Notes under the pieces: model-generated
Seen by the model: the letters and a program-made list of their open reading frames with translations, nothing else
What the model was told of the DNA's origin: nothing
Databases searched by the model: none
Assembly: GCA_041946775.1 (NCBI GenBank)
Contig: JBHGBA010000003.1
Span: 111,969-175,968, forward strand
Direction: 5' to 3'
Origin: Terriglobales bacterium
GTDB taxonomy: Bacteria > Acidobacteriota > Terriglobia > Terriglobales > Acidobacteriaceae
Length of the DNA: 64,000 nt
Translations under genes and position numbers: made by a program
Part shown: piece after piece, positions 28,762 through 51,652 of the stretch
Layout: every line of letters starts with the position of its first letter
How positions within the stretch are numbered: the stretch's first letter is position 1

Positions 28762-28773
28762 CGAATCCTCCCA

Positions 28774-29703: not shown

Positions 29704-29715
29704 AACTACTCTCGT

Positions 29716-30657: not shown

Positions 30658-30685
30658 GGTCTCCTCTTATCTGCCAAGGCGGGAG

Positions 30686-31339: not shown

Positions 31340-31347
31340 TCGTTGCG

Positions 31348-32385: not shown

Positions 32386-32633
32386 GCCCGAGGCCCCTCT
32401 GCCCTCGGTAAGCGTCGAAGCGCGACGTATGCGCATCCCCCTGGGGTGTCGCAACGAGGGATCCTGCCGCAGAAACAGTGATGCAGCCCCCGGTCGGTAA
32501 CGTTGCATGTGAACTTCACTGCATCAGGGCAATCGGGCTCACAAGGCCACGTGATACCAGTCACAGACGGTAGTGACACGTCCGCCCGAGAATGAAAGCG
32601 TAACAGAGCCGGACCAGAGGAGTGGAGGCGCCC

Positions 32634-33215: not shown

Positions 33216-34613
33216 CTATGCCCCGGCGGCATCCTCTTTTTCTTCCTCGTGTTTCTTCAACCTGCGCAGAATGGACGTGGGATGGATTCCGAGGATCCGC
33301 GCCGCCTGTGCCTTGTTCCAGTGGCATGCGACGAGAACTTCGTTGATGTAGCGCTCCTCCAGTTCGCGCAAACTGACGAATTGGCGGCCGGTCGGCAGCG
33401 ATTCGAGCGCACCGTCGGCACTGGCGACCGCGGCCTCGTAGTCGCGGATTTCTTCCGGCAGGGAAACGGCGTCAATGTCGCCCTCCGGCGCCAGAATCAT
33501 CGTGCGCTCCACTACATTGCGCAGTTCGCGAATGTTGCCCGGCCACGGATAGCGCGTCAGCAACTCGGCCGCCGCGGGGGTGAACCCGGTAAAGTTCTTC
33601 TTGAGGTCGCGGTTGTACTTCTGCATCAGGTCGAGGGCTAGCGGCAGGATGTCTTCCTGGCGCTCGCGTAACGGCCGGAGATAAATAGGCACGACGTTGA
33701 GCCGGTAGAACAGGTCTTCGCGGAACTGTCCTTGTGCGACCAGTTTTTTTAGGTCGGCGTTGGTTGCGGCGATCAGGCGCACGTCCACCTTCAGGGCGCG
33801 CGTGCCCCCCAGCCGCATGAACGTGCCTTCTTCCAGTACCCGCAGCAGCTTGGCCTGCACGTTGGGCGACATGTTGGCGATTTCATCGAGGAACAGAGTT
33901 CCCTTGTCCGCTTTCTCCAGCAGGCCCTCTTTGCGGCGGCGCGCGTCGGTGAACGCGCCCGGTTCGTAGCCAAACAGTTCGCTTTCCAGCAGCGTGTCCG
34001 GCAGTGCTGCGCAATTCAGCTCCAACAGCGGCATGGCGGCGCGCGGCGAATTGTAGTGAATTGCTTTGGCTAGCACCCCTTTACCGGTGCCGCTTTCGCC
34101 CAGGATCAAAATCGTGGTCTTGTCCGACTCAGCGGCCTTGCGCGCCACCTCCAGCGTCTGGCGCACCCGCGGGCTGGCAGTCACGACACGATCGAAGCCA
34201 TACCGGCCCTTGGCCCATTCCACGTTGTCGCGTACCCGCACGCGCAGCGACAGCATCTCGCTCGCATGGCGGATGGTATTGACCATGTCGGCGATGTGAA
34301 AGGGCTTGATCAGGTAGTCGTAGGCGCCCAGCTTCATGGATTCGACGGCGCGGTCCACCATGTGGTAGGCGCTCATCATCACCACCACGGTGCCGGGGTT
34401 GATGCGCTTAATTTGGCGCAGCACCTCGATTCCGTCAATGCCGGGCAGCACCACATCGAGCATGGCGAGATCGGGCTTCTCCTCGGCGAAGATCTTCACC
34501 GCCTCTTCACCGCTCATGGCCACGAACACTTCGAAACCCTCGTCGCGCAGCGCGCGGCTGATGGTCCGCAGCGTCAGCGCTTCATCATCGACAATGAGGA
34601 TGGAATAAGCCAT
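33216..34613 (-). CDS. sigma-54-dependent response regulator (NtrC family)
   Basis: REC domain (LIVDDE...MLDVVLPG), AAA+ GESGTGKG, ELFGYEPGAFTDA (GAFTGA variant) and a C-terminal Fis-type HTH. Confidence 0.9.
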   Translation of the reverse strand: MAYSILIVDDEALTLRTISRALRDEGFEVFVAMSGEEAVKIFAEEKPDLAMLDVVLPGIDGIEVLRQIKRINPGTVVVMMSAYHMVDRAVESMKLGAYDYLIKPFHIADMVNTIRHASEMLSLRVRVRDNVEWAKGRYGFDRVVTASPRVRQTLEVARKAAESDKTTILILGESGTGKGVLAKAIHYNSPRAAMPLLELNCAALPDTLLESELFGYEPGAFTDARRRKEGLLEKADKGTLFLDEIANMSPNVQAKLLRVLEEGTFMRLGGTRALKVDVRLIAATNADLKKLVAQGQFREDLFYRLNVVPIYLRPLRERQEDILPLALDLMQKYNRDLKKNFTGFTPAAAELLTRYPWPGNIRELRNVVERTMILAPEGDIDAVSLPEEIRDYEAAVASADGALESLPTGRQFVSLRELEERYINEVLVACHWNKAQAARILGIHPTSILRRLKKHEEEKEDAAGA

Positions 34614-34625
34614 GGTTCGCGCACG

Positions 34626-35762
34626 TTATGCGATCACTTCTTCCCCCCGCTCGACCTTCTTTCCCTCCTGGCGAATCGGCAACACGATGCGCACCGTGGT
34701 GCCGCGATTGGGCACGCTCTCGCATTCGATCTCGCCCGAATGATTCCGAATGTAAGCCTGGCTGATGCTCAGGCCCAGGCCGGTCCCTTTGCCACGCTTT
34801 GTGGTGAAAAACGGCTCGAAAACGTGCGGCAGGATGTCGGCGGGAATGCCCACGCCGGTGTCCTTGACTGTGATTTGGACGCGCTCGGCGAACTTGATTT
34901 TTTCGGCGGTGACGGTGATTACGCCCCCGTTCGGCATGGCTTGCGCCGAGTTGAGCAGCAGGTTCATCAGCACCTGCGAAATCTGGTTGGCATCCGCGGT
35001 GACCGACGGCAAGTCCGGCGCAATGTGCTTTGCGAGCCGTATGTTGCGGAACATCGGCTGGTGCGACAGGAACGCAAACGTGTCATTGACCAGCCGCTCG
35101 AAATTGAGTTTTGCCAATTGCAGCGGGCCGGGGCGGGCGTAATTGAGCAGTCCCTGTACGGTGGACGAAATGCGCTTTGTGCCCTGGATGCACTGCTCGA
35201 TCTCGATGCGCTCCTCAGAAGTGTGGGCATCCTTCAACTCGAGTTCGAGGTGCGACAGGATCCCGAGCAGCGGATTGTTGATCTCGTGGGCTGCGCCCAG
35301 CGCCAGTTGCGCCAGGGCCGCGTATTTCTCATATTCCGCCAATTGCGCTTCGAACTGGAGCTTTTCCTTAACCAGTTCACGCTCTTCCTCCAGCCGCTTG
35401 ATCAATTCCGCCTGCGCCTGGTCGCGCTCGTATTCGCGCTGCACCACTTCGCGCAGCGTCTTCTCCAACTCGCGCGCCAGCTTCAGGATGATGCCGGAAA
35501 CGAAGCGTCCAAAGCCGACCGCTAGCACCACTCCCAGCACCATGCAAACCAACAGGTATGTGCGCATGGGATGCCGGAGGTTGGGCGAGAACCGCCACAG
35601 CCGCTCGTGCAGGAGGAAATAGAAAACCACGAAGGGGATCAGCAGCACGGCGGCCGCGGCAACCGTCGTGCGAATACGCGCCTGCCGATAGACGCCCAGT
35701 CCTTTGCCGGGGAGACGTCCCGCGTGGTGAGCGTTCGCCTCGATCTGCGTCGTTTCTGTCAT
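34626..35762 (-). CDS. sensor histidine kinase (two TM helices, minimal outer loop)
   Basis: H-box [12 protein letters not shown] and HATPase motifs DTGVGI and GTGLGLS. Confidence 0.85.
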
Positions 35763-35871: not shown

Positions 35872-36543
35872 TCAGGCGTGCACTACGGCGGCCGATATCG
35901 CCTCGCGGAGCCGCTCGCAATCTGCACTGGAGAGATTCGTGAACTCAAAACCGTAATGAAACCCGCGGCGGTAACGCACGACCGCCTGCACCGTCCAGCC
36001 GGGAGCGTTCGGCAGATCACACTTTAGAGTGACCGCTTCGCCGACTTCCAGTTCTTCGGGGACCACGGCGCCCAATCCGTTGTCACCGATATCGCGCACA
36101 CGGCCGTACACGTCTTTGCCGCGCGACGGTCGCGTGAGCTTCAGCAGTTCATCTAGCGGTAAGCGCGGCGCGCGCCGGCGTTCCTGGCGGCCGCTTTCAT
36201 CCCCGGGCGACAGCGGCGCCAGTGCTTCGATGGTTGCCACCGTTGCGATCTGATTTGCCAGTTCCCGGCGCAGGCGGCTGATGGCGATCTGCTGATGAAA
36301 GACGAACACGTCGAACAGCAACACCAATCCCAGCAGTCCCCAAACCGCGCGGTGCAGGGTAGCGCGGTCCAGGTTGGTGGCCGCTCCATACGGTGCGATC
36401 AAGACGACCCCCAGCGTCAGCGCCAGCATGATTAACAGCGCCACGCTCCACCGCCACCACTCCCGGCGTTCGAGGCGCGTCAGCGTGGCGCACATCTCTG
36501 TCAGCTTAAGGTCCTTCACGTTCTCCGGCAGTTGTTGTGCCAT
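35872..36543 (-). CDS. membrane-anchored PilZ-domain protein
   Basis: Two TM helices, then RRAPR (RxxxR) and DIGDNG (DxSxxG-like) PilZ motifs. Confidence 0.65.
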   Translation of the reverse strand: MAQQLPENVKDLKLTEMCATLTRLERREWWRWSVALLIMLALTLGVVLIAPYGAATNLDRATLHRAVWGLLGLVLLFDVFVFHQQIAISRLRRELANQIATVATIEALAPLSPGDESGRQERRRAPRLPLDELLKLTRPSRGKDVYGRVRDIGDNGLGAVVPEELEVGEAVTLKCDLPNAPGWTVQAVVRYRRGFHYGFEFTNLSSADCERLREAISAAVVHA

Positions 36544-36617
36544 AGCTCGTCTCCGCAGACGGCCTGCAATTGCCAACTCTACGACCGCTGCCATCGCGAG
36601 GGAAAGTCTCACGCGTG

Positions 36618-37116: not shown

Positions 37117-37342
37117 CCTTCCCGTTCCCCGTTCCCCGTTCTCCGCTTTCCGTCTTTCGCCCCCACCCCTGTGTGTTTCGAGTGACGCGTGTCTTTCTGT
37201 ACCTCAGAGTCTTCTGTGGTTCGATGGTTGTCCTGCTCGCATCCACGTCTGGTTCTGGCGACACCTATATGCCGGAGAGGGAAAGCGGGGAACGGAAAAC
37301 GAATACGAAGAACGGGAAACAGGAAACGGGTAACGGGCAACG
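37117..37342. repeat. inverted heptamer arrays, (CCCGTTC/CCCGTTT)n ... (GGGAAAC/GGAAACG)n
   Basis: Left arm about 37117-37160 and right arm about 37275-37342. The element fills the gap between convergent stops at 37114 and 37345. It uses the same heptamer family as 692-896 and 44186-44359. Confidence 0.8.
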
Positions 37343-37344
37343 GT

Positions 37345-37887
37345 CTACGTCGCCGTATTCCCCGTATTCGCCAGCACGCGGTTGTGGCAGACGGCGCAGA
37401 GGTGCGGCTCTTTCAGGTCAATCCATTCCACCGAGTGGGAGGCTGACATTACGCAGCCGTAATCGTCGCAATGCGTGAGCTCCAGCGTGTGGCCGAGTTC
37501 ATGCACCGCCTCTTTCAGCAGCCTTTCGCCCAGAATCCCGCGATCTGCGGGAAGACCGTAAAACTCCTGCCGCAAACGATGCGTCGAGACCAGCGCACAC
37601 CGCCCGCCGAGTTGCGCTTCGCCGAATACAAAGGTCAGAATGGGGATATAAAGATCCACGGCCGCCACCCCCAGCACCCGCCAGGAGCGCGGGCCAACGA
37701 ACGCTTGCATGCGCGCCAGGATCTCCGACGAATAATATTGCCGCCGCTCCGGATGGAAGGCGAACTCCACACTCAAGCTATTTTCCAGTAGCTCACACGA
37801 CACGCGGAACACACGCCCCATACGCGCGCGCAAGTCCTCGAGCAGGCGGCGGTCGATTTCGCCGATGGCTAGCAACTGCAGGTTCAT
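37345..37887 (-). CDS. amzA: archaemetzincin-type zinc metallopeptidase (M54-like)
   Basis: HELGHTLELTHC (HExxHxxGxxH) followed by CVMSAS...CAVCH zinc-ribbon-like cysteines. The ATG overlaps the regulator TGA (ATGA). Confidence 0.8.
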   Translation of the reverse strand: MNLQLLAIGEIDRRLLEDLRARMGRVFRVSCELLENSLSVEFAFHPERRQYYSSEILARMQAFVGPRSWRVLGVAAVDLYIPILTFVFGEAQLGGRCALVSTHRLRQEFYGLPADRGILGERLLKEAVHELGHTLELTHCDDYGCVMSASHSVEWIDLKEPHLCAVCHNRVLANTGNTAT

Positions 37888-39242
37888 CGCGCTTCGGCCG
37901 TGGTCTTGCTCCAACCATACTTCTTCAGCTTGTTATGCAGGGTGACGCGGTCGATATCGAGCACCTCGGCCGCCCGCGTCTGGTTCCCGCCGCACTCTTC
38001 CAGCACGCGCAGTATATGCGCCTTCTCGATCTCCTCCAGCGAGCGTCCCTCGGGATTGCTTCCGTTGCGCGGCTTCAGGATGAAGTCCTGCTCGCGCAGT
38101 TCGGGCTCCTGTGCTACCACCATAGCGCGCTCCACCGCGTTCTCCAGTTCACGCACATTGCCCGGCCACGGATAAGACTGCAATGCGTACATGGCCGCCG
38201 GCGCCACCCGCGTGATCTTCTTGTTCATTTCCTTGGAGAACTTGCGGATGAAATGGTCCACCAGCAGGGGAATGTCCTCTTTGCGCTCGCGCAACGACGG
38301 CAACTCGATCTGGAAGACGTTCAGCCGGTAATACAGGTCGGGACGGAACTTGCCCTGCTCGATGAGTTCGTCGAAGTTCTTGTTGGTTGCGGCCACACAA
38401 CGGAAATCCACCTTAATGGGCTGGTTGCCCCCGACACGCACGATTTCCCGCTCCTGCAACACGCGCAGCAGGTCGGTTTGCGTCTTCAGGCTGATGTCCC
38501 CGATCTCGTCGAGAAAGACGGTACCCCCCTCAGCGATCTCGAACTTGCCCTTTTTGCGGTACTGTGCGCCGGTGAATGCGCCCTTTTCGTGGCCGAACAG
38601 TTCGCTTTCCAGCAACGTCTCGGTCAAGGCGCCGCAGTGGATCACAACCAGCGGATGGTATCGCCGCGGACTCGCCGCATGGATGGCGCGCGCCACCAAC
38701 TCCTTGCCGGTGCCGCTTTCGCCGGTGATGAGCACTGTCGCATCCGTCGGACCGACGGTCTCGATTGCGTCGAACACGCGCTTCATCGCCAGGCTCTGCC
38801 CAATGAGGTCGGGCGGATGCGCCACCTCGGTCATCTCTTTCAGGCGCTCGACTTCTTTCTGCGTGGCGCGCTCGGCCAGCGCTTTTTTCACCTTGTGCGC
38901 CACCTCGTCGGGATCCAGCGGCTTGGTCAGGTAGTCGTAAGCGCCATTCTTCATCGCCTGCACCGCGGTATCCACTGACGCGTAGCCAGTCATGATGATG
39001 GTGATGAGCTGCGGATCGATTTCGCGCATCTTGCGCTGCAACTCGATGCCGTCGGTGCCGCGCATCTTGATGTCCACCAGGGCAACGTCCCACTTCTGTT
39101 CCGCCATTCGGGTCAGCGCGTCGCTCGCGCCCTCAGCCGTGCCGATGTCGTACCCTTCTTCGCGGAACCATTTGCCCAGCGAATCGCGCACGCTCAACTC
39201 ATCATCCACGATGAGCAATTTGCCTCTCGGATTCACCTTCAC
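37884..39242 (-). CDS. sigma-54-dependent response regulator (NtrC family)
   Basis: REC domain, GESGTGKE, ELFGHEKGAFTGA and a C-terminal HTH (AAEVLDIDRVTL). The start may be the GTG at 39242 or 39236. Confidence 0.9.
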   Translation of the reverse strand: MKVNPRGKLLIVDDELSVRDSLGKWFREEGYDIGTAEGASDALTRMAEQKWDVALVDIKMRGTDGIELQRKMREIDPQLITIIMTGYASVDTAVQAMKNGAYDYLTKPLDPDEVAHKVKKALAERATQKEVERLKEMTEVAHPPDLIGQSLAMKRVFDAIETVGPTDATVLITGESGTGKELVARAIHAASPRRYHPLVVIHCGALTETLLESELFGHEKGAFTGAQYRKKGKFEIAEGGTVFLDEIGDISLKTQTDLLRVLQEREIVRVGGNQPIKVDFRCVAATNKNFDELIEQGKFRPDLYYRLNVFQIELPSLRERKEDIPLLVDHFIRKFSKEMNKKITRVAPAAMYALQSYPWPGNVRELENAVERAMVVAQEPELREQDFILKPRNGSNPEGRSLEEIEKAHILRVLEECGGNQTRAAEVLDIDRVTLHNKLKKYGWSKTTAEAR

Positions 39243-39258
39243 TCTCCTCCCACAACGC

Positions 39259-39335
39259 TGTCATCCTGAGGCCGCTTGCTTTTGGCGGCCAAAGGACCTG
39301 GCGCGAGCGACCGGCGCCGGCGGGCCGGTGTTGCC
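39259..39335. repeat. copy 1 of the TGTCATCCTGRGG...AAGGAYC...GGCCGG element
   Basis: Aligns by eye (roughly two thirds identity) with 45565-45640. Both copies lie about 15 nt upstream of a minus-strand start codon. Confidence 0.6.
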
Positions 39336-39366
39336 CGCCACCTGCTGCGCCGGCGCGAGCCCCTGT

Positions 39367-41100
39367 TCATTCCCCCGCACGCTGCGCCTTGGTGCGCTCC
39401 TCGCTTCCCGCCGCCGTGTCCAGAGGCAGGAAGATGTAGAAGCACGTACCACGCCCCACCTGGGACTCGACTTCGATCTGTCCCTGATGGCGGTCGATGA
39501 TGGTCTTGCTGATCGCCAATCCCAGCCCCACGCCTTTGCCGGTTTCTTTGGTGGTCATGAATGGCTCAAAGATCTTCGAACGGATCTCCGGCGGGATACC
39601 GCTGCCGTCGTCACGCACTTGCAATTCCACCTGACGGCTGTTCGGCAGATACCGCGTGCGCAGCCACAGGTTTCCACCGCGCGGCATGGCGTCATTGGCG
39701 TTCATGATCAGCGCCAGCAAGACCTGTTCGATCTGCGCGCTGTCGCAGTGCACCATTGGCAGGTCTGGCGCCAGGTCAAGTTGCGCCTGAATGCTGTTAA
39801 GCTCCAACTGGTGCTGCACCAGGCGGAGGCAACGGTCCACCACTTTGTTCAGGTCCACCCACGACAGGTTCATGGGCGCGCTGCGCGAGAAGGTAAGCAG
39901 GTTGCGCACCAGGTCGCCGCAGCGCCGGCTCTCCTCCTCCACCATATCCAGGCACTGGCGTGCTTCGCCGAGCCGCTCCGGACGACGCTCCAGATCGCCG
40001 CTGTCGATCCATTTCTTGATCAACTTGGCGTAGGTCAGAATGCCGGACAGCGGATTATTGACCTCGTGGGCCACCACCGCCGCCAGCTTGCCGATGGATG
40101 CCATCTTCTCCACCTGGAGCAGGTGTTCGTGCGCCTTCTGTAATTCGTTGGTTTTCTCTTGAACGCGCTCTTCCAGCGTGCGCGCCCATGAGGTAACTTC
40201 CTCGTTGGCGTCGCGCAGCCTGAGGCTCATCAGGTTGAACGATTCCGCCAGTTCCCCCAGTTCGTCACTTGACGCCACGGGAATCTGCCAGCCCAGTTCG
40301 CCTTCCGTCAGTTGCTTGGTACCGGCTTTCAGCGCCCTGACCGGCCGGTGAACCAGACGCCACACGAACAGCCAGCTCAGGATCGAAATGCCCACCATCG
40401 CCACCAGCGTGTAGATCACCATCTGCATGCTGGTCTCGTGCAGGTTGGCATCGGCCGTCTTCAGCGACATATTGATGTCGAGCACGCCGAGGATCTGCTG
40501 TTCCGGCGGATGGGCGTGACATGCCGCGTTGGAACAGCCGGGCTCGTTCTCGATGGGGTTGATGACGCCGAGCACACGCGCCCCGTTTGGCTTGTAAATG
40601 CGGAAGCGGTCGGGGCGATTCAGCTTGACCAGCGGCTGCGCCTGCGCGTGGCACGCATAACACGCCTCGGCGCCCATATCCACCTGCTGGTTGATTTCTG
40701 ACGGCTCGCTGGAATACCGGATCCGCCCTTCACGATCGAAAATGCGCACCCGTACGATGCCGGGCTCCACCCCAACCGTGCGGATGATGTGGTACATGGC
40801 TTCACGATCGTTGCGCAGCATGTGGTACTGCGTGCTGCGCTTGATCGTGTCGCTGACCCGCTCGGCGGCGCTCAGCGTCGCACCTTCGAGGTGCTGCCGG
40901 TGCAGCCGGACATTGGCAAAGCCCAGCAGACCGAAGGTGACGGCCAGCGCCCCCACCAGCACCGTGATCAGCTTGGCACCCAGGCTGCGGTGGACATTGC
41001 GCCAGTAGCCCCCACCGAAGGCACCCTCCAACAGACCCGGATTGCCCGGGAGCCCACTTTCCATGGGCTCCCGCGGAGTTTGCTCAGTCGCCTGAAACAT
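39367..41100 (-). CDS. sensor histidine kinase with HAMP domain and CxxCH-containing outer loop
   Basis: Two TM helices flank a loop of about 160 aa carrying CYACH and CSNAACH. HAMP domain, H-box [11 protein letters not shown] and HATPase DDGSGI/GVGLGLA. The start is 41100 or 41064. Confidence 0.85.
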
Positions 41101-42280
41101 TGGCCACCGCCGCCTTCGCGGCTGGCGCCGGCTCGCCGGCTGCGGCCGGAGCTGCGGCTGCATGGTGTTCTTCCTCGAAGATCGGCAAATACTTGGCTGC
41201 CACTGCGAAAATGAAGAACCCCGCCGCAACCATCGCCGCCGTGATGCCGTACTCCGTCCACTTCGGCACGTAGCGCACGCCCGAGACCGTCTCCATGCCG
41301 GTAATGCTGACGTTCAACCGGTTGGTGACGAAGCCGAGCAGCACCAGGATGGCCGACCAGTACAGGCCCTGCGCGGTGGTCCGGATCTTCTTGAAGGCCA
41401 GCATGATCAGCGGCACCACCAGGCCCATGCCCAACTCCAGCAGCAGCATGTTCCGCTCGTAGGCGTCTGCTCCCGGATTGACGATCTTGCTCAACATGCC
41501 GCGATGCAGCAGGTCCTCGAACTTGAGGATCGAGTACACCGTCAGCGCGACGATCAGCACCCGCCCCAGCTCCTGCACGATGGGCAACTCAAGCTGCTTC
41601 CGGAAGTACTTGGCGCTCATGGACGATTCGAAGATCGTCATCGCCAGGCCCACGCAGATTGCCGAGAGGAAGAAGAACACCGGCAACAGCGGCGTGTACC
41701 AGAAGGGGTGCAGCTTGTTGGGCACGATCAGGTACACCGTGCCCAGCGAACTCTGGTGCAGGGTGGAGAGGAGCACGCCCGCGATTACCAGCGGGATGAG
41801 CACGCCGCGGATGATCCTCAGCGGTTTCTCCAGCTTGAAGCGCTCCAGTACGATGGGGCTGAACTCCAGCGACAGTACCGCCGTGTAGAGCATGACGCAA
41901 TAGGCCACCTCAAACATGACCGAGTGCGGGTTGCGCATGATCAGTGGGTGCCAGATATTGTAGGGACGTCCCAGGTCCACCAGCAGGGCAATCGAAACCA
42001 GCAGGTAACCCAGGAAGGCGGTCAGGATGGTTGGCCGGATAATCGGGTGCCAGCGCTTGATGTTCAGGATGTGCACCGCCGCTGTCAGGGTAAACCCGCC
42101 GGCCGCCAGCATCACGCCGCACAACACATCAAAGCCGATCCAGATGCCCCAGGGGAAATTGTCGTTCAGGTTCGACGCCGGTCCGATGCCCTGTGTGAAG
42201 CGGATAAAGACACCGTAGATCCCGATCGCCATCGTGACCAGGAAGATTACCCGCCAGAATGTCAGCTTGGGCAGCCTCAT
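41084..42280 (-). CDS. NrfD/PsrC/HybB-like polytopic quinone-interacting membrane protein
   Basis: About 10 TM helices. FPWGIWIGFDVLCGVMLAAGGF and GRPYNIWHP motifs are typical of the NrfD family. ATGA overlap with the FeS gene. Confidence 0.8.
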   Translation of the reverse strand: MRLPKLTFWRVIFLVTMAIGIYGVFIRFTQGIGPASNLNDNFPWGIWIGFDVLCGVMLAAGGFTLTAAVHILNIKRWHPIIRPTILTAFLGYLLVSIALLVDLGRPYNIWHPLIMRNPHSVMFEVAYCVMLYTAVLSLEFSPIVLERFKLEKPLRIIRGVLIPLVIAGVLLSTLHQSSLGTVYLIVPNKLHPFWYTPLLPVFFFLSAICVGLAMTIFESSMSAKYFRKQLELPIVQELGRVLIVALTVYSILKFEDLLHRGMLSKIVNPGADAYERNMLLLELGMGLVVPLIMLAFKKIRTTAQGLYWSAILVLLGFVTNRLNVSITGMETVSGVRYVPKWTEYGITAAMVAAGFFIFAVAAKYLPIFEEEHHAAAAPAAAGEPAPAAKAAVANVSGD

Positions 42281-43053
42281 TTCGCACCCCCATTCCTCTT
42301 GGCTTCTTTCTCCCGGGCCTCGGCCGCGGCCACTTCCTCGCGGCGGTGCGTGATCCACCACGTGCCGCCCAGCACCGCGCCCGCCAGGGGCAGGAAATCG
42401 GGGATACGCGACAGCACGCGATAGGTGTACATGGGCAACGGATCTGTCACCAGGTCATTGCGGTAGCCGAACTCGGTGAAGGGAATGGAGGATAGCAGCA
42501 GCACACTGGTGCCGCCCACTTCGTGTTCCCCGTAGATGTGGTTAACGTAGGTGCCCGGGTTGTCGTGGATGCGCTTGCGGGCTTCGGCCAGCAGTTCTTC
42601 GCGCTCGCCGAACTTCGTCGCCCCTGTGGGGCATGCCTCAGTGCAGGCGGTCGGCAGGCCCTTTTCGACTCGGTCCGAGCACATGATGCACTTCTGTACC
42701 TTGGGGGTCAGGTTGTTTGTCCACTCGTACTTGGGCACCCCGAACGGGCAGGCCAGCATGCAGTACCGGCAGCCCATGCACTTGTAGGCATCGTAGGCAA
42801 CCGGCCCCGCTGCCATCTTATGTAATGCGCCCACCGGGCACACCGAAGCGCACGCCGGGTCTTCGCAGTTCATGCACAACTTGCGCATGAACTTGTCATC
42901 TTTGGCTAGTACCACCGTGTACTTATGGTCCGACTGGACCGTTTCCGCGGCGATAGTCTCGTCATACTTTAAGTTGTTTTTCTCCGCGCACGCCTGCTCG
43001 CATTGCTTGCAGCCGATGCACTGAGTGGCGTCGTATAGGATTGCCTTGCTCAT
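42277..43053 (-). CDS. NrfC/HybA-like four-cluster 4Fe-4S protein with a C-terminal TM anchor
   Basis: CIGCKQCEQAC, CMNCEDPACASVCP, CMGCRYCMLACP and CIMCSDR...ACTEACP motifs. C-terminal helix LPLAGAVLGGTWWI. No N-terminal signal is visible. Confidence 0.85.
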   Translation of the reverse strand: MSKAILYDATQCIGCKQCEQACAEKNNLKYDETIAAETVQSDHKYTVVLAKDDKFMRKLCMNCEDPACASVCPVGALHKMAAGPVAYDAYKCMGCRYCMLACPFGVPKYEWTNNLTPKVQKCIMCSDRVEKGLPTACTEACPTGATKFGEREELLAEARKRIHDNPGTYVNHIYGEHEVGGTSVLLLSSIPFTEFGYRNDLVTDPLPMYTYRVLSRIPDFLPLAGAVLGGTWWITHRREEVAAAEAREKEAKRNGGAK

Positions 43054-43549
43054 GAGAAAAGTCTCCGGAAAGACCCCGAAGTCGCAGGTGCGCAGTTCGG
43101 CTTCGGTTCCTCAGCGATATGTAGGGTATGAAAAGTATGAACAGCTCAGGACCCGTGGACTTCCGAATGACTACTGGATAAGGAGCGAGCAAACAGTGGC
43201 TGGGCGATACCGCAGGAAAAAAGAGTAAGAAAAGGACTGCGTACAGCGGGAGCGTCTCCCCCCCACTGTTGCGGAAGCTCGATGCGGGCCCTGCGGGTCT
43301 CGCCTCAGGGCCCGGAACGTTGCTAACTCGGCTGCTCGATGCCGATGCGTCCTGAATACGGAACGGCGCAACGGCCAGTCTGGGTCGATGTTGAATCAGC
43401 CGGATTGTCGGATGGGCTTCCTGGCGGGCGCTGATGCATCCCAGCCCGAGGCCCGTGGCTGACCGCTTCACAGTGACACCCCGTACCTTCCGCCGAGCCC
43501 ACGCTCTGGCCTGGGCGCCGGCCGTGACGACGGGACTCCCTTGGTTAGC

Positions 43550-43846
43550 TTACTTAAGACCCTTGAGGTAATCGCCGATCGCCTTCACCTGCTCGGCATT
43601 CACCTTCTTGGCCACGGCAGCGTGCTTCGGGGTTTCCAAAGCCTTCTTCACATCCGCTTCCGTCTTGCCCTTCACCGCCGGCGCCTTTACCGCCGGCTTA
43701 CCGGCGGCATCCGCGCCGTGGCAAGCCACGCAGTTCGTCTTGTACAGCGCCGCACCGTCCTCTGCCGCCCACGACAGATTCGGCAGAGCTACAAACAGCA
43801 ACAGAGCAAGTCCCGCTACCAGGGCCGCAAGCTTCGTCATCTTCAT
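43550..43846 (-). CDS. monohaem class I c-type cytochrome
   Basis: AAGGAGG RBS, signal peptide, and a single CVACH with a downstream Met-poor c-type fold. Confidence 0.8.
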   Translation of the reverse strand: MKMTKLAALVAGLALLLFVALPNLSWAAEDGAALYKTNCVACHGADAAGKPAVKAPAVKGKTEADVKKALETPKHAAVAKKVNAEQVKAIGDYLKGLK

Positions 43847-44185
43847 GATTTCCACTTCCTCCTTGAAACGTATGCTTCTCTGACCTCACAACTCCGGCGC
43901 CGGCCTCGCTTGTGGGCGAAGCCATCAGGCACCAGACGCTGTGCCTTACCTCGAAAGCTAAGCTGCTCTCGCTGTGCTCTCTGGGAAAGTTTCCTGCTTC
44001 AGGAATGGTTTTGGATGTGATTCGCCTCACGTCCAGGCGTGATCTTTTGGCTAACTTGTGGAGAGTTTCATCACTTTTTCGTCGAAATTCGAAACCTAGC
44101 GACTCACATGCGTTGAAATTCTCAGCAGCGGAGCGCTACGACGAGTATGCGGATTCCACTTGTTCTGTTGTGAGATTCAGCAATC

Positions 44186-44359
44186 CTGTCCCCGTTCTCG
44201 TTTCACGTTCCCAGTTTCCCGCCTTCCGCATGGTTCCTGGTCATACCGCGCCCCACCGGCACTGCGAAAGCGAATGGCAGCCACGAGTGACCGGAACTGA
44301 AAGACGGAAACTGGGAAAAGGAAAAAACGGGAAATGGGGGTGAACGGAAAAAGGAAAAC
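44186..44359. repeat. inverted heptamer arrays (CCCGTTC-like)n ... (GGAAACT/GGGAAAA-like)n
   Basis: Left arm about 44186-44229 and right arm about 44291-44359, ending 5 nt before the rhodanese stop codon. Confidence 0.7.
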
Positions 44360-44364
44360 TCACC

Positions 44365-45300
44365 CTACTTGCCGCTCATGACTTCGGTGTCTTTGGCGTG
44401 GTTCCACTCCTGCAACGAACCGTCGTAGAGCGAGACGTCGTAGCCCAGAAACTTGGCCACGAAATACCCATATGCGGCCTGGACGCCGGTATTGCAGTAG
44501 GTTACGACCTTCTTGCCCGGCGTGGCGCCGGCCGCGGCAAACAGTTCGCGCATCTCGGGCGTCGGTCGCAAGTCGGGGCTGTCGGGACGCTCGACCAACT
44601 TGTGCCAGTCCACATTGGTCGCGCCGGGGATGTGTCCGGCACGCCCCAGTCCGTGCTGTTGCCTGTGACCGGTATAGTCCTCCGTGGGACGCGTATCAAT
44701 CAGCGCCACCGTGTTCTGTCCAGCCGTCAGCTTGCGGGAATACTCCCGGACCTCCGGCAGTTGCGCTAAAACCTTTGGGTTCAGTCGCACCGTGAACTTC
44801 GCTGGCGCAAACTTGCGAACCACGTTGGTAACTGGACGTTCCTCGCGGCGCCATTTCTCCAGCCCGCCATCGAGCAGGGCAGCGCGGTCGCCATGGCCGA
44901 GATAGTCCAGCGTCCAGTACGCCCGCGCCGCCGACAGTCCTTCGCGATCGCCATAGAGGACCACGCGCGAGTCGTCACCTACGCCAAGGTCGGAAAACAG
45001 TTTCTGGAGGTCGGCAACGGGCGGTAGCTGATTGTTTAGCCCTTCGCGACTGACCGCGAGCTTATCGAACCAGAGGAACCGGGCGCCGGGAATGTGCGCC
45101 GCCTCGTAGTCCGCCCGCTTCTGGCCCACATGGATGACCACCACTGTTGGATCATTCATGTGGTCGGCGAGCCAGTCGGTAGATACCACCATGTTGGCCC
45201 GCAGCGGCGGGACCTTCACCTTCCGCTGCGCCGTGGCGGGCGAACCTGCAACCAGAAAAACCAGCAGAGCTACAACGGGGGCCCAGAAGCGCGGATTCAT
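44365..45300 (-). CDS. secreted tandem-rhodanese sulfurtransferase (SseA/thiosulfate sulfurtransferase-like)
   Basis: Signal peptide, two rhodanese domains and active-site loop CNTGVQA. Confidence 0.85.
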   Translation of the reverse strand: MNPRFWAPVVALLVFLVAGSPATAQRKVKVPPLRANMVVSTDWLADHMNDPTVVVIHVGQKRADYEAAHIPGARFLWFDKLAVSREGLNNQLPPVADLQKLFSDLGVGDDSRVVLYGDREGLSAARAYWTLDYLGHGDRAALLDGGLEKWRREERPVTNVVRKFAPAKFTVRLNPKVLAQLPEVREYSRKLTAGQNTVALIDTRPTEDYTGHRQQHGLGRAGHIPGATNVDWHKLVERPDSPDLRPTPEMRELFAAAGATPGKKVVTYCNTGVQAAYGYFVAKFLGYDVSLYDGSLQEWNHAKDTEVMSGK

Positions 45301-45310
45301 GCCGAATATT

Positions 45311-45550
45311 TTATGCCGAGCGGTGATCGGCGCGGAACTGGCGCGGCGTCTCGCACTCGGCTACGTTCTTCAGCCCGAGCTTCCTGAGAAACCACATTGC
45401 CGGACACCAGTTGGTGAACCCCGATTGCAGCAGGTTCAAGCCGACAAACGCGGTAAACAGCAGCCAGTATGGCGAAACCCAGTAACCCAGCGCCAGCGAC
45501 AGCAGCACAAACGCACCCGCTATCAACCGCAAACACCGTTCAATTGTCAT
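45311..45550 (-). CDS. DUF2892 (YgaP C-terminal-like) membrane protein
   Basis: 79 aa. RCLRLIAGAFVLL...GLNLLQSGFTNWCP matches the DUF2892 pattern. GGGAGG RBS. Confidence 0.7.
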   Translation of the reverse strand: MTIERCLRLIAGAFVLLSLALGYWVSPYWLLFTAFVGLNLLQSGFTNWCPAMWFLRKLGLKNVAECETPRQFRADHRSA

Positions 45551-45564
45551 CGTAACCTCCCGCT

Positions 45565-45640
45565 TGTCATCCTGGGGAGCGCTTCTGTCGCGCGCCGAAG
45601 GATCCAGGCGCGGACCGGCGCGCCTCGGGCCGGTTTTGCT
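45565..45640. repeat. copy 2 of the TGTCATCCTGRGG element
   Basis: See 39259-39335. Confidence 0.6.
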
Positions 45641-45713
45641 CGAGGCCTGAAGCGCCGACGCGAGCGACCTCTTCTCTTGCTTAAATGCAAGTTGAGCGGT
45701 GGTGTTACAGGTT

Positions 45714-48700
45714 CTACGCGACCGGTTCGGCAACATTCTGCGGCGCGGGCACGTGCGGCTGCGCCTTCCCCCAGCTCTCGCTGATGTAGTAGAGCACCGG
45801 CACCGCCATGCGCGAGAGCACGGTGGACGCGACTTCGCCCGCCATCAGCGAGATCGCCAAGCCCTGGAAGATCGGGTCGAACAGGATGACGCTCGCGCCG
45901 ACGACCACGGCCGCCGCAGTCAGCAGCATCGGACGGAAGCGCACCGCGCCCGCATCCACTACGGCGTCCTCCAGCGACATGCCTTGCTGCCGCCGCAGTT
46001 CGATGAAGTCCACCAGGATGATCGAGTTGCGCACGATGATGCCCGCGCCGGCGATGAAGCCGATCATCGAGGTTGCGGTAAAAAACGCACCCATTAGCGC
46101 GTGCGCCGGCAGGATGCCCACGAGGGTCAGCGGAATCGGCGCCATGATCACCAGCGGCGTCTTGAACGAGCCGAACCAGCCGACCACCAGCACGTAGATC
46201 AGCACCAGCACGGCGGCGAACGCCAGGCCCAAATCGCGAAAGACCTCGATGGTGATCTGCCACTCGCCGTCCCACTTCATCGAGTAGTGCTCGGTCGCTT
46301 CCGGCTGCGTCGAGTTGTAGATCTTGATGCCGAAGCCGTCCGGCGCTTTCAGCTCGCGCAGCGCCTCGTTCATCTTCATGATGGCGTACACCGGGCTTTC
46401 TTCCTGTCCGGCGACGTCGCCGATCACGTAGGTCACGTCCTGCAGGTTCTTGCGGTAACGGCTCAGGTCAATCGTGGTTTCTTTGGTGTTCGTGACTTCG
46501 CGCAGCGAGACCTGGCTGCCTGCGATGGTGGGCAGTTTGAGGTTGGCGAGTTCGTCAATGCCGCTGCGGTCGCTGCGCGAGAGGCGCACCAACACCGGAA
46601 CGTCCTCGCGAGAATTGGGCGAGTGCAGTAGTCCCGCTTCCGCTCCACTCAGCGCGATCTGCAACGTGCGGGTCACATCGGCTGCCGAGACGCCGTGCAG
46701 CGCGGCCTTGTCGAGGTCCACCTGCATGTCGTACCTGGTTTGCGGGTCCTCGACGTACCAATCAATGTCCACTACGCCCGGCGTGGTCTCGAGGATGCGC
46801 TTGATCTTCGCCGCCAACTCGACGCGGCCTTCGTGAGTCGGTCCGTACACTTCGGCGACCAGCGTGGCGAGCACCGGCGGGCCGGGCGGCACCTCCGAAA
46901 CTTTCACCCGGGCGCCGTAGGCCAAGCCGATCTTCTGCAACTCGGGCCGCAGGCGCTTGGCGATGTCGTGGCTCTGCGCGCTGCGTTCGTCTTTCGGCAG
47001 CAAGTTGACCTGGATGTCCGCCTGGTTCGGCTGACGGCGCAGATAGTAATGCCGCACCAGCCCGTTGAAGTTGTACGGGCCCGAAGTTCCTGAGTAGATC
47101 TGGTAATTGGTGACTTCCGGTTGAGTGGCAAGATAGCGGCCCAGCGCCTGCGCGACTTGCGTGGTCTGCTCGAGCGTAGTTCCGTCGGGCATGTCAATGA
47201 CGACCTGGAACTCGCTCTTGTTGTCGAAGGGTAGCATTTTCACGTGTACGAGCTTCAGCGGAACCAGTGCACACGCCAGCAGCAGCAGGACAACCACGCC
47301 CCCGAGGAAGAGATAGCGCTTGCGCGGGTGTTCGATCAGCGGCGTCATGACGCGGCGGTACGCGCGCGTGGTCCAGCCTTCGGCTTCGCGATGATGATTG
47401 CCTTCAGCAGCCGCGTAGTGCCGCAGCAGGCGCAACGCTGCCCACGGCGACACGACAAACGCCACGGCCAGCGAAAATAGCATGGCCGCCGAGGCGCCGA
47501 CTGGGATTGGCCGCATATACGGCCCCATCAGCCCGCTCACGAACGCCATCGGGAGAATGGCGGCAATCACGGTGAACGTGGCGAGGATGGTGGGATTGCC
47601 CACTTCATCTACAGCTTCGACTGCGACCGCGCTCAACGGGCGCCCGCGGTTTTCCGGCAGACGGAAGTGGCGAACGATGTTTTCGACTACGACAATGGCA
47701 TCGTCCACCAGGATGCCGATGGAGAAGATGAGCGCGAACAGGGTGACGCGGTTGAGCGTGTAGCCGAAGAAGTAAAAGATGGCGAGGGTGAGTGCCAGCG
47801 TCACCGGAATGGCGATGAGCACCACGCCGGACTCGCGCCAGCCCAGCGCCAGCGCGATCAGCAGCGTTACGGAAAGCGTCGCGATCAGCAGGTGCTTCAG
47901 CAGTTCGTCGGATTTCTCTTTCGCCGTGTCGCCGTAATTGCGCGTGATGCTTATGTTCAGGTCGTGGGGCAAAAGATAGCCGCGCAGGCCGTTGACTTTG
48001 TCCATCACGCGATGGGCAATGATCGTGGCGTTGGTGCCTTTACGTTTGGCAAAGGTGATGGTGACCGCCGGATACTCGCCTGCCGCTGCGCTGGCGTGGC
48101 CGTCGTGTTTCGCAATTACAGCAGCGGCGCCTTTGCCATTGCCATAGAGCACGTAGGAATCAGGCTCGGCCGGACCGTCGTCGAGTTTCTCGACGACATC
48201 TTTCAGATACACCGGGCGCCCGCCGTGAACGCCAACGACCACTTGTTGCAGCTCCTGTGAGCTGGTGAAAAAGCGCCCGGCTTCTACCTGGAATTCGCGG
48301 TTGTCGCGCGCGAAACTGCCCGCCACTCCACGCGCATTGGCGCTCTGTAGCTGCATGAGAACAGCGGCCGGCGTGAGAGCGTAGGCCGCGAGTTTCTGCG
48401 TATCGAGCACCACTCGCACCTGGCGCGGCAGGCCGCCGATCAGCGTGGTTTCGGCAACGTCGTCCACCTGCTTGAGCGTGTGTTCGAGTTCGCCGGCGAC
48501 GCGCCGCAACTGGTACGCGTTATAATTAGGCCCCCAAAGCGTGAGCGCCAGGATGGGCACGTCGTCAATAGAGCGCACCTTGATGATGGGTTGCGAAACG
48601 CCCGGCGGAATGCGGTCGAAGTTTGAATAAAGTTTGTTGTAGGTCTTTACGATCGCATCTTCTTCGTTCGTGCCCACGTAGAAGCGCACGATCACCAGGC

Positions 48701-49004
48701 TCATGCCGGGATGCGAAATGGAGTAGAGATACTCGACGCCGGGGACTTCGCGCAGCAGTTTCTCCATCGGCACGGAGACGCGCTGCTCCACTTCGCTGGC
48801 CGATGCCCCCGGCATCTGGACCATCACGTCGAGCATCGGCACTTTGATCTGCGGCTCTTCCTCGCGCGGGGTCTGCCACACGGCAAATGCGCCCAGCAGC
48901 AGCGACGCCGCGATGGTGAGCGGCGTCAGCTTCGAGGTGATGAAGGCTTGGGCGATCTTGCCTGCCAACCGCAGCTTGGAGATGTTCTCGTCTGCTCTAT
49001 TCAT
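45714..49004 (-). CDS. RND efflux transporter permease (AcrB/CzcA superfamily)
   Basis: About 1096 aa with 12-TM RND architecture and two large periplasmic loops. Confidence 0.95.
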
Positions 49005-49016
49005 CAGCAATCACCG

Positions 49017-49088
49017 AACGCAAAGGGCGCAAAGGACGCGGAGGAAAGGTTGACGACTCGGGCCCGCCGTCGGGACAGCGGGCGCTAC
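49017..49088. repeat. copy 2 of the CGCAAAGG...GGGCCCGCCGTCGGGACAGCGGGCGCTAC element
   Basis: On the minus strand it begins immediately after the adaptor-gene stop codon (TAG-GTAGCGCC...). Confidence 0.75.
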
Positions 49089-50207: not shown

Positions 50208-50232
50208 AGCTGCTTCCTCTGCGTAAAACTCT

Positions 50233-51639: not shown

Positions 51640-51652
51640 ACGGGCCACCCGG

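What the first reader, a model, noticed from the sequence alone, without database searches (positions are those of the whole stretch)
37345..43053. Orphan FeS/NrfD redox module fused operonically to a kinase, a sigma-54 regulator and an archaemetzincin protease
Five minus-strand genes are packed with coupling-type junctions:
- The FeS-protein TGA overlaps the NrfD-like ATG (ATGA at 42277-42280).
- The NrfD-like stop (41084) lies inside, or 19 nt before, the two plausible kinase starts (41100 / 41064).
- After a 124-nt spacer holding a repeat copy comes a sigma-54 enhancer-binding response regulator. Its TGA overlaps the ATG of an HExxHxxGxxH archaemetzincin-type protease (ATGA at 37884-37887).

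NrfC/NrfD-type pairs normally serve a catalytic partner such as a molybdopterin, multihaem or hydrogenase subunit. None is encoded here. The only nearby redox protein is a monohaem cytochrome c, 500 nt upstream.

The membrane quinone module therefore looks wired to a signalling and proteolysis cassette rather than to an enzyme. My hypothesis is a quinone-pool or periplasmic redox sensing system with transcriptional (sigma-54) and proteolytic outputs. I know of no described system with this composition.
Basis: partly seen in the sequence, partly recalled or inferred. Interest (0 to 1): 0.72.

Follow-up and report, generated by a model that had tools for sequence, protein, structure and literature searches.

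The report
Haem-sensor kinase cassette with quinone module
A soil acidobacterium carries a tightly packed, widely conserved operon that joins a small membrane quinone/iron-sulfur module to a haem-containing sensor kinase, a sigma-54 activator and a zinc protease; it most likely is a respiratory module travelling with its own redox-sensing regulator, a Geobacter-like arrangement with an unstudied protease partner.

Summary
The five minus-strand genes and their coupling-type junctions are real. The same order is kept in about 80 Terriglobales genomes.

The kinase's periplasmic domain carries two conserved c-haem motifs (CxxCH and Cx4CH). It belongs to the Geobacter haem-c PAS/PDC sensor family (PDB 3B42/3B47, GSU0599 type).

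I sampled 11 distant clades of this sensor kinase:
- 6 have an FeS/NrfD pair next to it.
- 1 has a cytochrome b plus multihaem c pair (CbcBA-like).
- 1 has a NiFe hydrogenase.
- 1 has Hdr-like genes.
- 2 have no redox module, including a bare kinase–M54–activator triad.

So the kinase / sigma-54 activator / archaemetzincin unit is the constant part, and the quinone module beside it is interchangeable. This best fits a respiratory module with its own dedicated redox regulator, like BccR/CbcBA in Geobacter. It fits less well with a quinone module that serves as the sensor's input, though that is not excluded.

No catalytic Mo or NiFe subunit is adjacent in this FeS/NrfD family. Cytochrome c partners are common.

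Unexplained: the FeS protein lacks a Tat signal although it should be periplasmic. The role of the conserved archaemetzincin is unknown. No sigma-54 promoter could be shown.

Verdict: a new variant of a known kind, of moderate interest.

The parts
43550..43855 (-). Monohaem class-I cytochrome c with a Sec signal; likely periplasmic redox partner. Optional member of the cluster.
   Evidence: PF00034 and PF13442. Present upstream of the FeS gene in 56 of 80 loci at a median gap of 338 nt.
43054..43549 (-). 496-nt intergenic region with a conserved RBS (CCGGAGA). It begins with a sequence that forms a conserved hairpin/palindrome in relatives, just after the cytochrome c stop. No convincing sigma-54 -24/-12 element.
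   Evidence: Footprint alignment. Sigma-54 scans. Only subclades show AGGTAAGCAGCTTGCA at about -142.
42277..43053 (-). NrfC/HybA/HmcB-like protein with four [4Fe-4S] motifs and a C-terminal TM helix followed by a K/R-rich tail. No Tat signal.
   Evidence: PF13247. HmcB 264.8 bits and HybA 194.5 bits, both below cut-off, with alignments starting at profile positions 36-40. All 80 orthologues start MSKA(L/I)LYD. Paralogues are also signal-less. The L087 orthologue has an RRKFL Tat signal.
41084..42280 (-). NrfD-family integral membrane protein, HybB/HmcC-like. About 10 TM helices, N-in/C-in. Presumed quinone site.
   Evidence: PF03916 at 75.7 bits. HmcC 309.9 and HybB 288.5 bits, both below cut-off. 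Hydropathy and positive-inside analysis. The L083 orthologue has an 11th TM plus a trihaem c7 domain.
39367..41100 (-). Sensor histidine kinase: TM1 (residues 44-62), periplasmic PAS/PDC domain with CYACH and CSNAACH haem-c motifs, TM2 (228-246), HAMP, HisKA, HATPase. An alternative start lies at 41064.
   Evidence: Pfam. Motifs kept in nearly all 80 orthologues and in 64/69 distant representatives. The sensor profile hits 3B42/3B47 at E = 8e-8 and 8e-5. Model pLDDT 89 with a PDC fold.
39243..39366 (-). 124-nt HK-EBP spacer, atypical for the family. No repeat copy detected.
37884..39242 (-). NtrC-type sigma-54 enhancer-binding response regulator (receiver, AAA+ with GAFTGA, HTH_8).
   Evidence: PF00072, PF00158 (235 bits) and PF02954. 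GAFTGA read in the translation. 75-85% identical orthologues in the same position.
37345..37887 (-). Cytoplasmic archaemetzincin (M54) with HELGHTLELTHC-x4-C-x-M...CxxC. Start overlaps the EBP stop.
   Evidence: NF033823 at 160.2 bits, above the 145 cut-off. Zinc ligands and the Cys4 site kept in 71/73 orthologues. Found next to the EBP in 6/11 distant clades.
37123..37341 (.). Heptamer-repeat inverted element immediately downstream of the operon; possible boundary. A second copy lies at 44201-44342, upstream of cytC.

Best explanation
The five genes form one operon that combines two things.

(i) A small membrane redox module. An NrfD-type quinone-interacting subunit is paired with a four-cluster FeS subunit. 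It moves electrons between the (mena)quinone pool and periplasmic c-type haem proteins, in the manner proposed for Geobacter Cbc3/Cbc4 and for Hmc/Qrc complexes.

(ii) Its dedicated regulatory unit. The kinase reads periplasmic redox state, or a haem ligand, through one or two covalently bound haems in a PAS/PDC domain. It phosphorylates the NtrC-type activator, which switches on sigma-54-dependent respiratory genes, probably including this operon or neighbouring respiratory clusters. The archaemetzincin is a conserved cytoplasmic third partner of the kinase/activator pair, possibly processing or resetting one of them.

Shown: gene content, operon-type packing, deep conservation of the linkage, membership of the sensor in the haem-PAS family, and interchangeability of the neighbouring redox module.

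Inferred: haem binding, direction of electron flow, the regulatory target, and any protease activity or substrate.
For: - Operon packing is conserved in 80 loci. No minus-strand terminator lies between the genes.
- The two CX2-4CH motifs are invariant in the sensor alignment, together with a Met. They are kept in 64/69 distant representatives.
- The sensor profile matches the haem-c sensors 3B42/3B47, with their CQSCH aligned to the Cx4CH motif. Many relatives carry PF21563 in Pfam's precomputed annotation. The model has a PDC fold.
- Literature: two-motif sensors include GSU0599 (PMC3831638; PMC8396549). The sigma-54 regulator BccR (GSU0598) is required to induce the quinone oxidoreductase CbcBA as potential falls (10.1101/2021.04.15.440034).
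- FeS + membrane subunit + cytochrome c complexes are accepted putative quinol:cytochrome c oxidoreductases.
- The cassette neighbours vary: FeS/NrfD in 6 clades, a CbcBA-like pair in L090, none in L091. The sensor kinase alone lies near a NiFe hydrogenase in L092.
- Cytochrome c7 partners or fusions occur in L083 and L085.
- The window is a respiratory island: aa3 oxidase, Rieske/cytochrome b, multihaem c, ferrochelatase.
Against: - No consistent sigma-54 -24/-12 element was found upstream of the FeS gene or the cytochrome c gene in the window or across relatives. Autoregulation is therefore unproven and the activator's targets are unknown.
- The FeS protein has no Tat signal. Its presence in the periplasm, which the electron wire needs, is unexplained.
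- The Terriglobales version has no multihaem subunit, only a monohaem cytochrome c in 56 of 80 loci.
- Adjacency of GSU0599 to BccR is inferred from consecutive locus tags. Homology of the window's activator to BccR was not tested because no Geobacter sequences were available.
- Synteny alone cannot separate 'regulated target' from 'sensing accessory'.
Confidence: 0.55

Rival explanations
1. The FeS/NrfD pair is not a respiratory enzyme but a dedicated input device. It equilibrates the kinase's periplasmic haems with the quinone pool, so the kinase reports the quinol/quinone ratio. Outputs are sigma-54 transcription and proteolysis.
For: - The NrfD stop and kinase start overlap in most of the 80 loci, and the kinase directly follows NrfD in L085, L086 and L088.
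- The Terriglobales operon has no multihaem subunit, so the kinase's own haem domain could be the FeS protein's partner.
- 6 of 11 distant sensor-kinase clades keep an FeS/NrfD pair.
Against: - The same HK/EBP/M54 unit exists with no FeS/NrfD pair (L091) and beside a cytochrome b + multihaem c pair (L090). The sensor kinase also occurs near a hydrogenase (L092).
- Related pairs have their own cytochrome c7 partner or fusion.
- In the studied Geobacter analogue the adjacent quinone oxidoreductase is the regulated target.
- In L083, L087 and L089 other genes or a divergent orientation separate NrfD from the kinase.
Confidence: 0.2
2. The FeS/NrfD pair is the membrane anchor of a catalytic enzyme encoded elsewhere, for example a periplasmic hydrogenase, formate dehydrogenase or molybdoenzyme. 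That enzyme's Tat signal carries the signal-less FeS protein across the membrane. The two-component system simply regulates this anchor.
For: - The FeS protein lacks a Tat signal but has a C-terminal anchor with a K/R-rich tail, the architecture of hitchhiking subunits such as FdnH (from my own knowledge).
- The closest named families are HybA/HybB and HmcB/HmcC.
Against: - No catalytic subunit lies in the 64-kb window, among the recurrent flanking genes of 80 loci, or in the six distant FeS/NrfD loci.
- The L087 orthologue has its own Tat signal and still has no catalytic partner.
- Scores are below every equivalog cut-off.
Confidence: 0.15
3. The FeS domain faces the cytoplasm. The module links the quinone pool to cytoplasmic partners, such as Cys-rich GCV_H-like proteins in relatives, and not to periplasmic haems.
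For: - The Tat signal is absent across the Acidobacterial subfamily, including paralogues.
- Cytoplasmic Cys-motif GCV_H-like proteins recur in related clusters.
Against: - The positively charged tail after the C-terminal TM helix predicts an N-out FeS domain.
- One orthologue has a Tat signal, and one NrfD is fused to a periplasmic c7 domain.
- To my knowledge, FeS partners in all solved NrfD-family complexes sit on the periplasmic side.
Confidence: 0.07

Closest known systems
Geobacter sulfurreducens BccR (GSU0598) / GSU0599 / cbcBA (Cbc5) system
   Same: - A sigma-54 response regulator encoded next to an inner-membrane quinone oxidoreductase that it induces at low redox potential.
- A neighbouring kinase with a periplasmic PAS-like sensor bearing two CX2-4CH haem motifs.
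- The L090 relative pairs the window-type cassette with a cytochrome b + multihaem c module of this kind.
   Different: - The membrane module here is FeS + NrfD, not a dihaem cytochrome b + heptahaem cytochrome c.
- Here the regulators are co-operonic and downstream, not divergent.
- An archaemetzincin is part of the unit here.
- No sigma-54 promoter could be shown here.
- Direct sequence homology to BccR and GSU0599 was not tested.
Geobacter Cbc4 (CbcSTU) and Cbc3 (CbcVWX) putative quinol:cytochrome c oxidoreductases
   Same: A four-cluster FeS protein plus an integral membrane subunit, working with c-type cytochromes and no catalytic Mo or NiFe subunit. The distant relatives L083 and L085 have the multihaem subunit.
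   Different: - The window has only a monohaem cytochrome c upstream and no NapC/NirT-type tetrahaem subunit.
- The FeS protein is signal-less.
- I found no description of the Cbc3/Cbc4 clusters carrying a kinase/activator/protease cassette.
HybA/HybB (E. coli hydrogenase-2 anchor) and HmcB/HmcC (Desulfovibrio Hmc complex)
   Same: These are the best-scoring named families for the FeS and NrfD proteins, with near full-length alignments and a C-terminal TM on the FeS protein.
   Different: - Scores are below the equivalog cut-offs.
- The Tat signal region is missing.
- There is no hydrogenase or 16-haem HmcA partner.
Haem-c PAS-like periplasmic sensors GSU0582 / GSU0935 (PDB 3B47 / 3B42; Pfam PF21563)
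   Same: Profile-level sequence match, with the haem motif aligned, and a PDC fold.
   Different: - Those are chemoreceptors with one CxxCH motif.
- Here the homologous motif is Cx4CH.
- An extra CxxCH sits in an inserted loop.
- The output here is a histidine kinase.
Archaemetzincins (AmzA, AMZ-tk, human AMZ1/2)
   Same: The family HMM is passed, and the HExxHxxxxxHC-x4-CxM...CxxC zinc and Cys4 signature is present.
   Different: - The metzincin Gly is replaced by Glu.
- The host is bacterial.
- The gene is translationally coupled to a sigma-54 activator.
- No function is known for any bacterial member.

Membership tests
NrfD/PsrC membrane subunit family (PF03916) | Pfam model above the gathering score | tested here: met
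   75.7 bits against a cut-off of 25.8, covering profile positions 4-312 of 313.
HmcC / HybB equivalogs (NF045714 / NF008133) | NCBIfam equivalog score above the curated cut-off | tested here: not met
   309.9 bits against 550, and 288.5 bits against 450.
HmcB / HybA / NrfC FeS subunits | Equivalog score above the cut-off | tested here: not met
   264.8 against 420, 194.5 against 263, and 92.8 against 377.6.
HmcB / HybA / NrfC FeS subunits | N-terminal twin-arginine signal | tested here: not met
   The ORF cannot extend upstream. All 80 orthologues start MSKA(L/I)LYD.
HmcB / HybA / NrfC FeS subunits | Four Cys clusters of the [4Fe-4S] type | tested here: met
   CIGCKQCEQAC, CMNCEDPACASVCP, CMGCRYCMLACP and CIMC...CTEACP are read in the translation. 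PF13247.
Haem-c PAS-like periplasmic sensor (PF21563; 3B42/3B47; GSU0599 subtype) | Sequence relationship to the family | tested here: met
   The single sequence scores 20.9 bits against a cut-off of 27. A profile of 29 sensors hits 3B42 at E = 8e-8 and 3B47 at E = 8e-5. Many relatives are precomputed as PF21563.
Haem-c PAS-like periplasmic sensor (PF21563; 3B42/3B47; GSU0599 subtype) | Conserved CX2-4CH haem motif(s) in a domain between two TM helices | tested here: met
   CYACH and CSNAACH. Both are invariant in alignment A1, kept in about 76/80 orthologues and 64/69 representatives. TM helices at residues 44-62 and 228-246.
Haem-c PAS-like periplasmic sensor (PF21563; 3B42/3B47; GSU0599 subtype) | PAS/PDC fold | tested here: met
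   Model pLDDT 89.3. Foldseek hits WalK, CitA and 3B42.
Haem-c PAS-like periplasmic sensor (PF21563; 3B42/3B47; GSU0599 subtype) | Covalently bound haem | not testable with these tools
   Needs expression with a Ccm system plus haem stain or mass spectrometry.
NtrC-type sigma-54 enhancer-binding response regulator | Receiver + sigma-54 AAA+ domain with GAFTGA + HTH_8 | tested here: met
   PF00072 97 bits, PF00158 235 bits, PF02954 60 bits. GAFTGA is in the translation.
BccR/CbcBA-type regulated quinone oxidoreductase system | Sigma-54 promoter in front of the structural genes | tested here: inconclusive
   No consistent -24/-12 element. A plausible one occurs only in subclades.
BccR/CbcBA-type regulated quinone oxidoreductase system | Dihaem cytochrome b + multihaem cytochrome c module | tested here: not met
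   The module here is FeS + NrfD. The CbcBA-like module is seen only in relative L090.
BccR/CbcBA-type regulated quinone oxidoreductase system | Induction at low redox potential dependent on the regulator | not testable with these tools
   Needs genetics and transcriptomics.
Archaemetzincin (M54; NF033823) | Family model above the cut-off | tested here: met
   160.2 bits against 145. PF07998 78.6 bits.
Archaemetzincin (M54; NF033823) | Consensus HEXXHXXGXXHCX4CXMX17CXXC (PMC3427221) | tested here: inconclusive
   The His, Glu and Cys positions are kept in 71/73 orthologues. The Gly is Glu in the window and variable in relatives. The spacer is 16 residues, not 17.

The most novel reading that the evidence does not exclude
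The kinase, sigma-54 activator and archaemetzincin form a three-component redox-signalling unit, conserved across phyla, in which the protease is an integral signalling partner (for example by cleaving or resetting the activator or kinase). In the Terriglobales version the signal-less FeS/NrfD pair acts as an electron 'antenna' that poises the kinase's two haems at the quinone-pool potential. That would be a protein-wired quinone-pool sensor, unlike the direct quinone sensing of ArcB or RegB.
Probability: 0.18. Interest if true: 0.78.

Novelty: new variant of a known kind. Interest (0 to 1): 0.5.

Why it matters
- It extends the only studied example (Geobacter BccR/CbcBA) of redox-potential-tuned switching between quinone oxidoreductases to a multi-phylum gene-cluster family. 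That family includes Terriglobales, an acidobacterial order represented here by many soil and peat metagenome bins.
- It identifies a concrete, testable sensor: a two-haem PAS kinase.
- It flags two conserved but unstudied partners: an archaemetzincin, a protease family with no known bacterial role, and, in relatives, GcvH-like proteins.
- It exposes a cell-biological puzzle: a predicted periplasmic four-cluster FeS protein with no Tat signal.
- If the FeS/NrfD pair does feed the sensor, it would be a new way to sense the quinone pool.

Tried and rejected
- Sigma-54 promoter search: a window scan with up to 2 mismatches, then GG-N10-GC scoring upstream of the FeS and cytC genes in all loci. 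No consistent element.
- Single-sequence search of the sensor against the PDB: nothing. Only the profile worked.
- Profile search of the large protein database for a taxonomic overview: it returned mostly Terriglobales fragments.
- Repeat copy in the HK-EBP spacer: none.
- Rfam on the whole window: no hits.
- Literature searches for NrfC/NrfD with a kinase and sigma-54, and for archaemetzincin with sigma-54: nothing relevant.
- Literature on GSU0597 and GSU3489: they are listed only as 'hypothetical', so their identity with the GCV_H-like proteins could not be tested.
- Chance adjacency: rejected because of the conservation.
- A catalytic subunit hidden in the flanks: rejected. The recurrent large flank ORFs are UvrA, Lon, FtsK, GlnD, RecQ and similar housekeeping genes.
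- Terminator scan: no convincing internal terminators.

Full report
**Observation.** The window comes from a Terriglobales (Acidobacteriota) metagenome bin. The five minus-strand ORFs exist as described:
- an FeS protein at 42277-43053
- an NrfD-family protein at 41084-42280
- a HAMP/HisKA/HATPase kinase at 39367-41100 (alternative start 41064)
- a receiver / sigma-54 AAA+ / HTH_8 activator at 37884-39242
- an archaemetzincin at 37345-37887

The two ATGA overlaps, the 17-nt NrfD/kinase overlap (or 19-nt gap) and the 124-nt kinase-activator spacer all read as stated.

Three details need correction:
1. The spacer has no second copy in the window.
2. The protease motif is HELGHTLELTH. Glu occupies the metzincin Gly position, which is variable in orthologues.
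3. The monohaem cytochrome c is not the only redox protein nearby. The kinase carries two haem-c motifs. The window also encodes Rieske, split cytochrome b, a 1082-aa multihaem cytochrome c, ferrochelatase, an aa3 oxidase and haem O synthase.

**Is the arrangement more than chance?** Yes. A genome scan with the NrfD protein returned 80 Terriglobales loci at 65-88% identity. tblastn with all window proteins shows the order FeS-NrfD-HK-EBP-M54 in essentially every locus long enough to show it. The modal junctions are:
- -4 for FeS-NrfD (63/80)
- -14 for NrfD-HK (42/80)
- -4 for HK-EBP (24/78)
- -4 for EBP-M54 (35/70)

The window's 124-nt HK-EBP spacer is the exception. No intrinsic terminator is predicted on the coding strand between the genes. 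The cytochrome c gene precedes the FeS gene in 56 of 80 loci, at a median gap of 338 nt.

Between its two TM helices (residues 44-62 and 228-246) the kinase has CYACH and CSNAACH, about 42 residues apart.
- Both motifs are present in nearly all 80 orthologues.
- An exhaustive search of 1.84 billion cluster representatives with the sensor region found 1,664 clusters (227 at E <= 1e-30).
- 64 of 69 full-length representatives, down to 35% identity, keep both motifs at the same spacing.
- In a 29-sequence alignment both Cys pairs, both His and a Met are invariant.
- A profile of that alignment hits PDB 3B42 (E = 8e-8) and 3B47 (E = 8e-5), the haem-c PAS-like periplasmic sensor domains of Geobacter chemoreceptors. 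Their CQSCH aligns with the Cx4CH motif.
- The AlphaFold model (pLDDT 89.3) has the extracytoplasmic PAS/PDC fold, matching WalK, CitA and 3B42.
- Many relatives carry PF21563 in Pfam's precomputed annotation.

**The FeS/NrfD pair.** It is closest to HmcB/HmcC and HybA/HybB, but below every equivalog cut-off. The FeS alignments start at profile positions 36-40, so the Tat signal region is absent. The FeS protein has four [4Fe-4S] Cys motifs and a C-terminal TM helix with a K/R-rich tail. NrfD fits a 10-TM, N-in/C-in topology.

No catalytic molybdo- or NiFe subunit lies:
- in the 64-kb window
- among the recurrent flanking genes of the 80 loci, which are GCV_H-like, HK2/EBP2, EngB, Lon, FtsK, GlnD, RecQ, UvrA and similar
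- in the six distant FeS/NrfD loci

Distant relatives instead carry a six-haem cytochrome c7-type gene (L085) or a trihaem c7 domain fused to NrfD through an 11th TM helix (L083). FeS + membrane subunit + cytochrome c complexes with no catalytic subunit are a recognised kind of putative quinol:cytochrome c oxidoreductase in Geobacter, namely Cbc4/CbcSTU and Cbc3, whose roles are still unknown. So 'orphan' overstates the anomaly.

**Deep comparative context.** I looked up the genomic context of 11 distant clades of the two-motif sensor kinase.

| Locus | Arrangement |
|---|---|
| L083 | FeS - NrfD::c7 - unknown - HK - EBP |
| L085 | c7 - FeS - NrfD - HK - RR - RR::GCV_H |
| L086 | GCV_H - x - FeS - NrfD - HK - EBP - M54 |
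| L087 | M54 <- EBP, divergent from GCV_H - FeS - NrfD - GCV_H - GCV_H - HK |
| L088 | GCV_H - GCV_H - FeS - NrfD - HK - EBP - M54 |
| L089 | GCV_H <- NrfD <- FeS <- GCV_H, divergent from GCV_H - HK - EBP - M54 |
| L090 (Ca. Riflebacteria) | cyt b <- multihaem c <- GCV_H, divergent from GCV_H - EBP - M54 - HK |
| L091 | HK - M54 - EBP only |
| L092 | RR - HK, near a NiFe hydrogenase with cytochrome b |
| L093 (PAS variant) | Hdr-like genes upstream |
| L082 (PAS variant) | no redox module |

The HK/EBP/M54 unit, often with GCV_H-like proteins, is therefore the constant element. The membrane redox module beside it is interchangeable and sometimes absent.

**Mechanistic reading.** The closest studied system is Geobacter cbcBA. 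The sigma-54 response regulator BccR (GSU0598) is needed to induce the quinone oxidoreductase CbcBA as redox potential falls, from a sigma-54 promoter. BccR-like regulators next to such modules were noted in several phyla (10.1101/2021.04.15.440034). The two-haem-motif kinase GSU0599 is presumably its neighbour. That is my inference from consecutive locus tags.

By analogy, and given that the module is swappable, the best-supported model has two parts. The FeS/NrfD pair is a small quinone:cytochrome c module. The haem kinase, sigma-54 activator and archaemetzincin are its dedicated redox-responsive regulatory unit.

The NrfD-to-kinase coupling and the lack of a multihaem subunit in Terriglobales are compatible with it. 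It is weakened by L090, L091 and L092, and by the c7 partners in L083 and L085.

**What remains open.**
1. No consistent sigma-54 -24/-12 element was found upstream of the FeS or cytC genes. Only subclades show a plausible one, for example AGGTAAGCAGCTTGCA at about -142 in eight loci. Footprinting shows a conserved RBS and a conserved hairpin after the cytC stop.
2. The FeS protein has no Tat signal in any of the 80 orthologues, in three distant relatives, or in the paralogues. Yet its tail charge, the Tat signal on the L087 orthologue and the periplasmic c7 fusion in L083 all argue for a periplasmic FeS domain. No carrier subunit is evident.
3. The archaemetzincin keeps its zinc ligands, catalytic Glu and Cys4 site in 71 of 73 orthologues. 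It accompanies the activator in 6 of 11 distant clades. I found no literature on any bacterial role or on a link to sigma-54 regulators.

**Verdict.** It is probably wrong on its direction, and it is not without precedent. I class this as a new variant of a known kind: a haem-sensor / sigma-54-regulated quinone oxidoreductase cluster. The new features are the archaemetzincin partner, the signal-less FeS subunit, and its occurrence in Acidobacteria with an NrfD-type module. Interest is moderate (0.5).

Noticed in passing
window 718-880, 37123-37341, 44201-44342: Three copies of an element made of inverted arrays of heptamer repeats, (CCCGTTT)n and (AAACGGG)n, around a non-conserved core of about 100-135 nt. 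Two copies bracket the cytC...M54 block. The pattern occurs 15 times against 0.79 expected. No Rfam family matches.
   Followed up: partly
window 33216-35762, and 25513-32508: A second kinase / sigma-54 activator pair (HK2-EBP2; the kinase has only a short periplasmic loop and no haem motifs). In this window it is followed by ferrochelatase, Rieske, split cytochrome b and a 1082-aa multihaem cytochrome c. In L010, L026, L028, L033 and L035 the same pair is followed by a paralogous, also signal-less FeS'-NrfD' pair; a GCV_H-like gene directly upstream of FeS' was seen in L028.
   Followed up: partly
L086-L090, L085 (fusion), and about 23 Terriglobales loci such as L036, L065, L066 and L072 at about 7900-8600: GCV_H-like (PF01597) proteins of about 220-260 aa recur in these clusters. 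Some have an N-terminal TM helix, others a C-x13-C-x5-C-x2-C motif, and one is fused to a receiver domain. The lipoyl-lysine position is not conserved. None is present in this window. They might correspond to the 'hypothetical' GSU0597 and GSU3489 of the Geobacter cbcBA operon, but that was not testable.
   Followed up: partly
window 35872-36612 (PilZ gene) and 36528-36542: A membrane PilZ-domain gene follows the operon. A near-consensus sigma-54 -24/-12 element (TGGCACAACAACTGC, minus strand) lies inside its annotated 5' end, which suggests a shorter ORF with a sigma-54 promoter. PilZ is not conserved at this position in relatives.
   Followed up: no
window 42277-43053 and orthologues in L001-L080: The four-cluster FeS protein is predicted to be periplasmic (tail-anchored, with a K/R-rich cytoplasmic tail). 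It has no Tat signal anywhere in the Acidobacterial subfamily, while the L087 orthologue has one. The export route is unexplained.
   Followed up: yes
window 52277-53206: A single 309-aa ORF combines ECF sigma-70 regions 2 and 4 with a zf-HC2 anti-sigma zinc finger. It may be a fused sigma / anti-sigma factor.
   Followed up: no
window 44365-45736: A tandem-rhodanese sulfurtransferase and a YgaP-like TM protein sit between the cytochrome c gene and an RND efflux operon (45714-51705). The rhodanese is found near the cassette in only one of the 80 relatives (L003).
   Followed up: partly
window 43480-43520 and aligned positions in L001, L017, L029, L041, L044, L048: A conserved block and hairpin (for example CGTGAA..TCAGCCG-N5-CGGCTGA) lies just after the cytochrome c stop codon. 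It could be a terminator-like structure or a regulator binding site.
   Followed up: no
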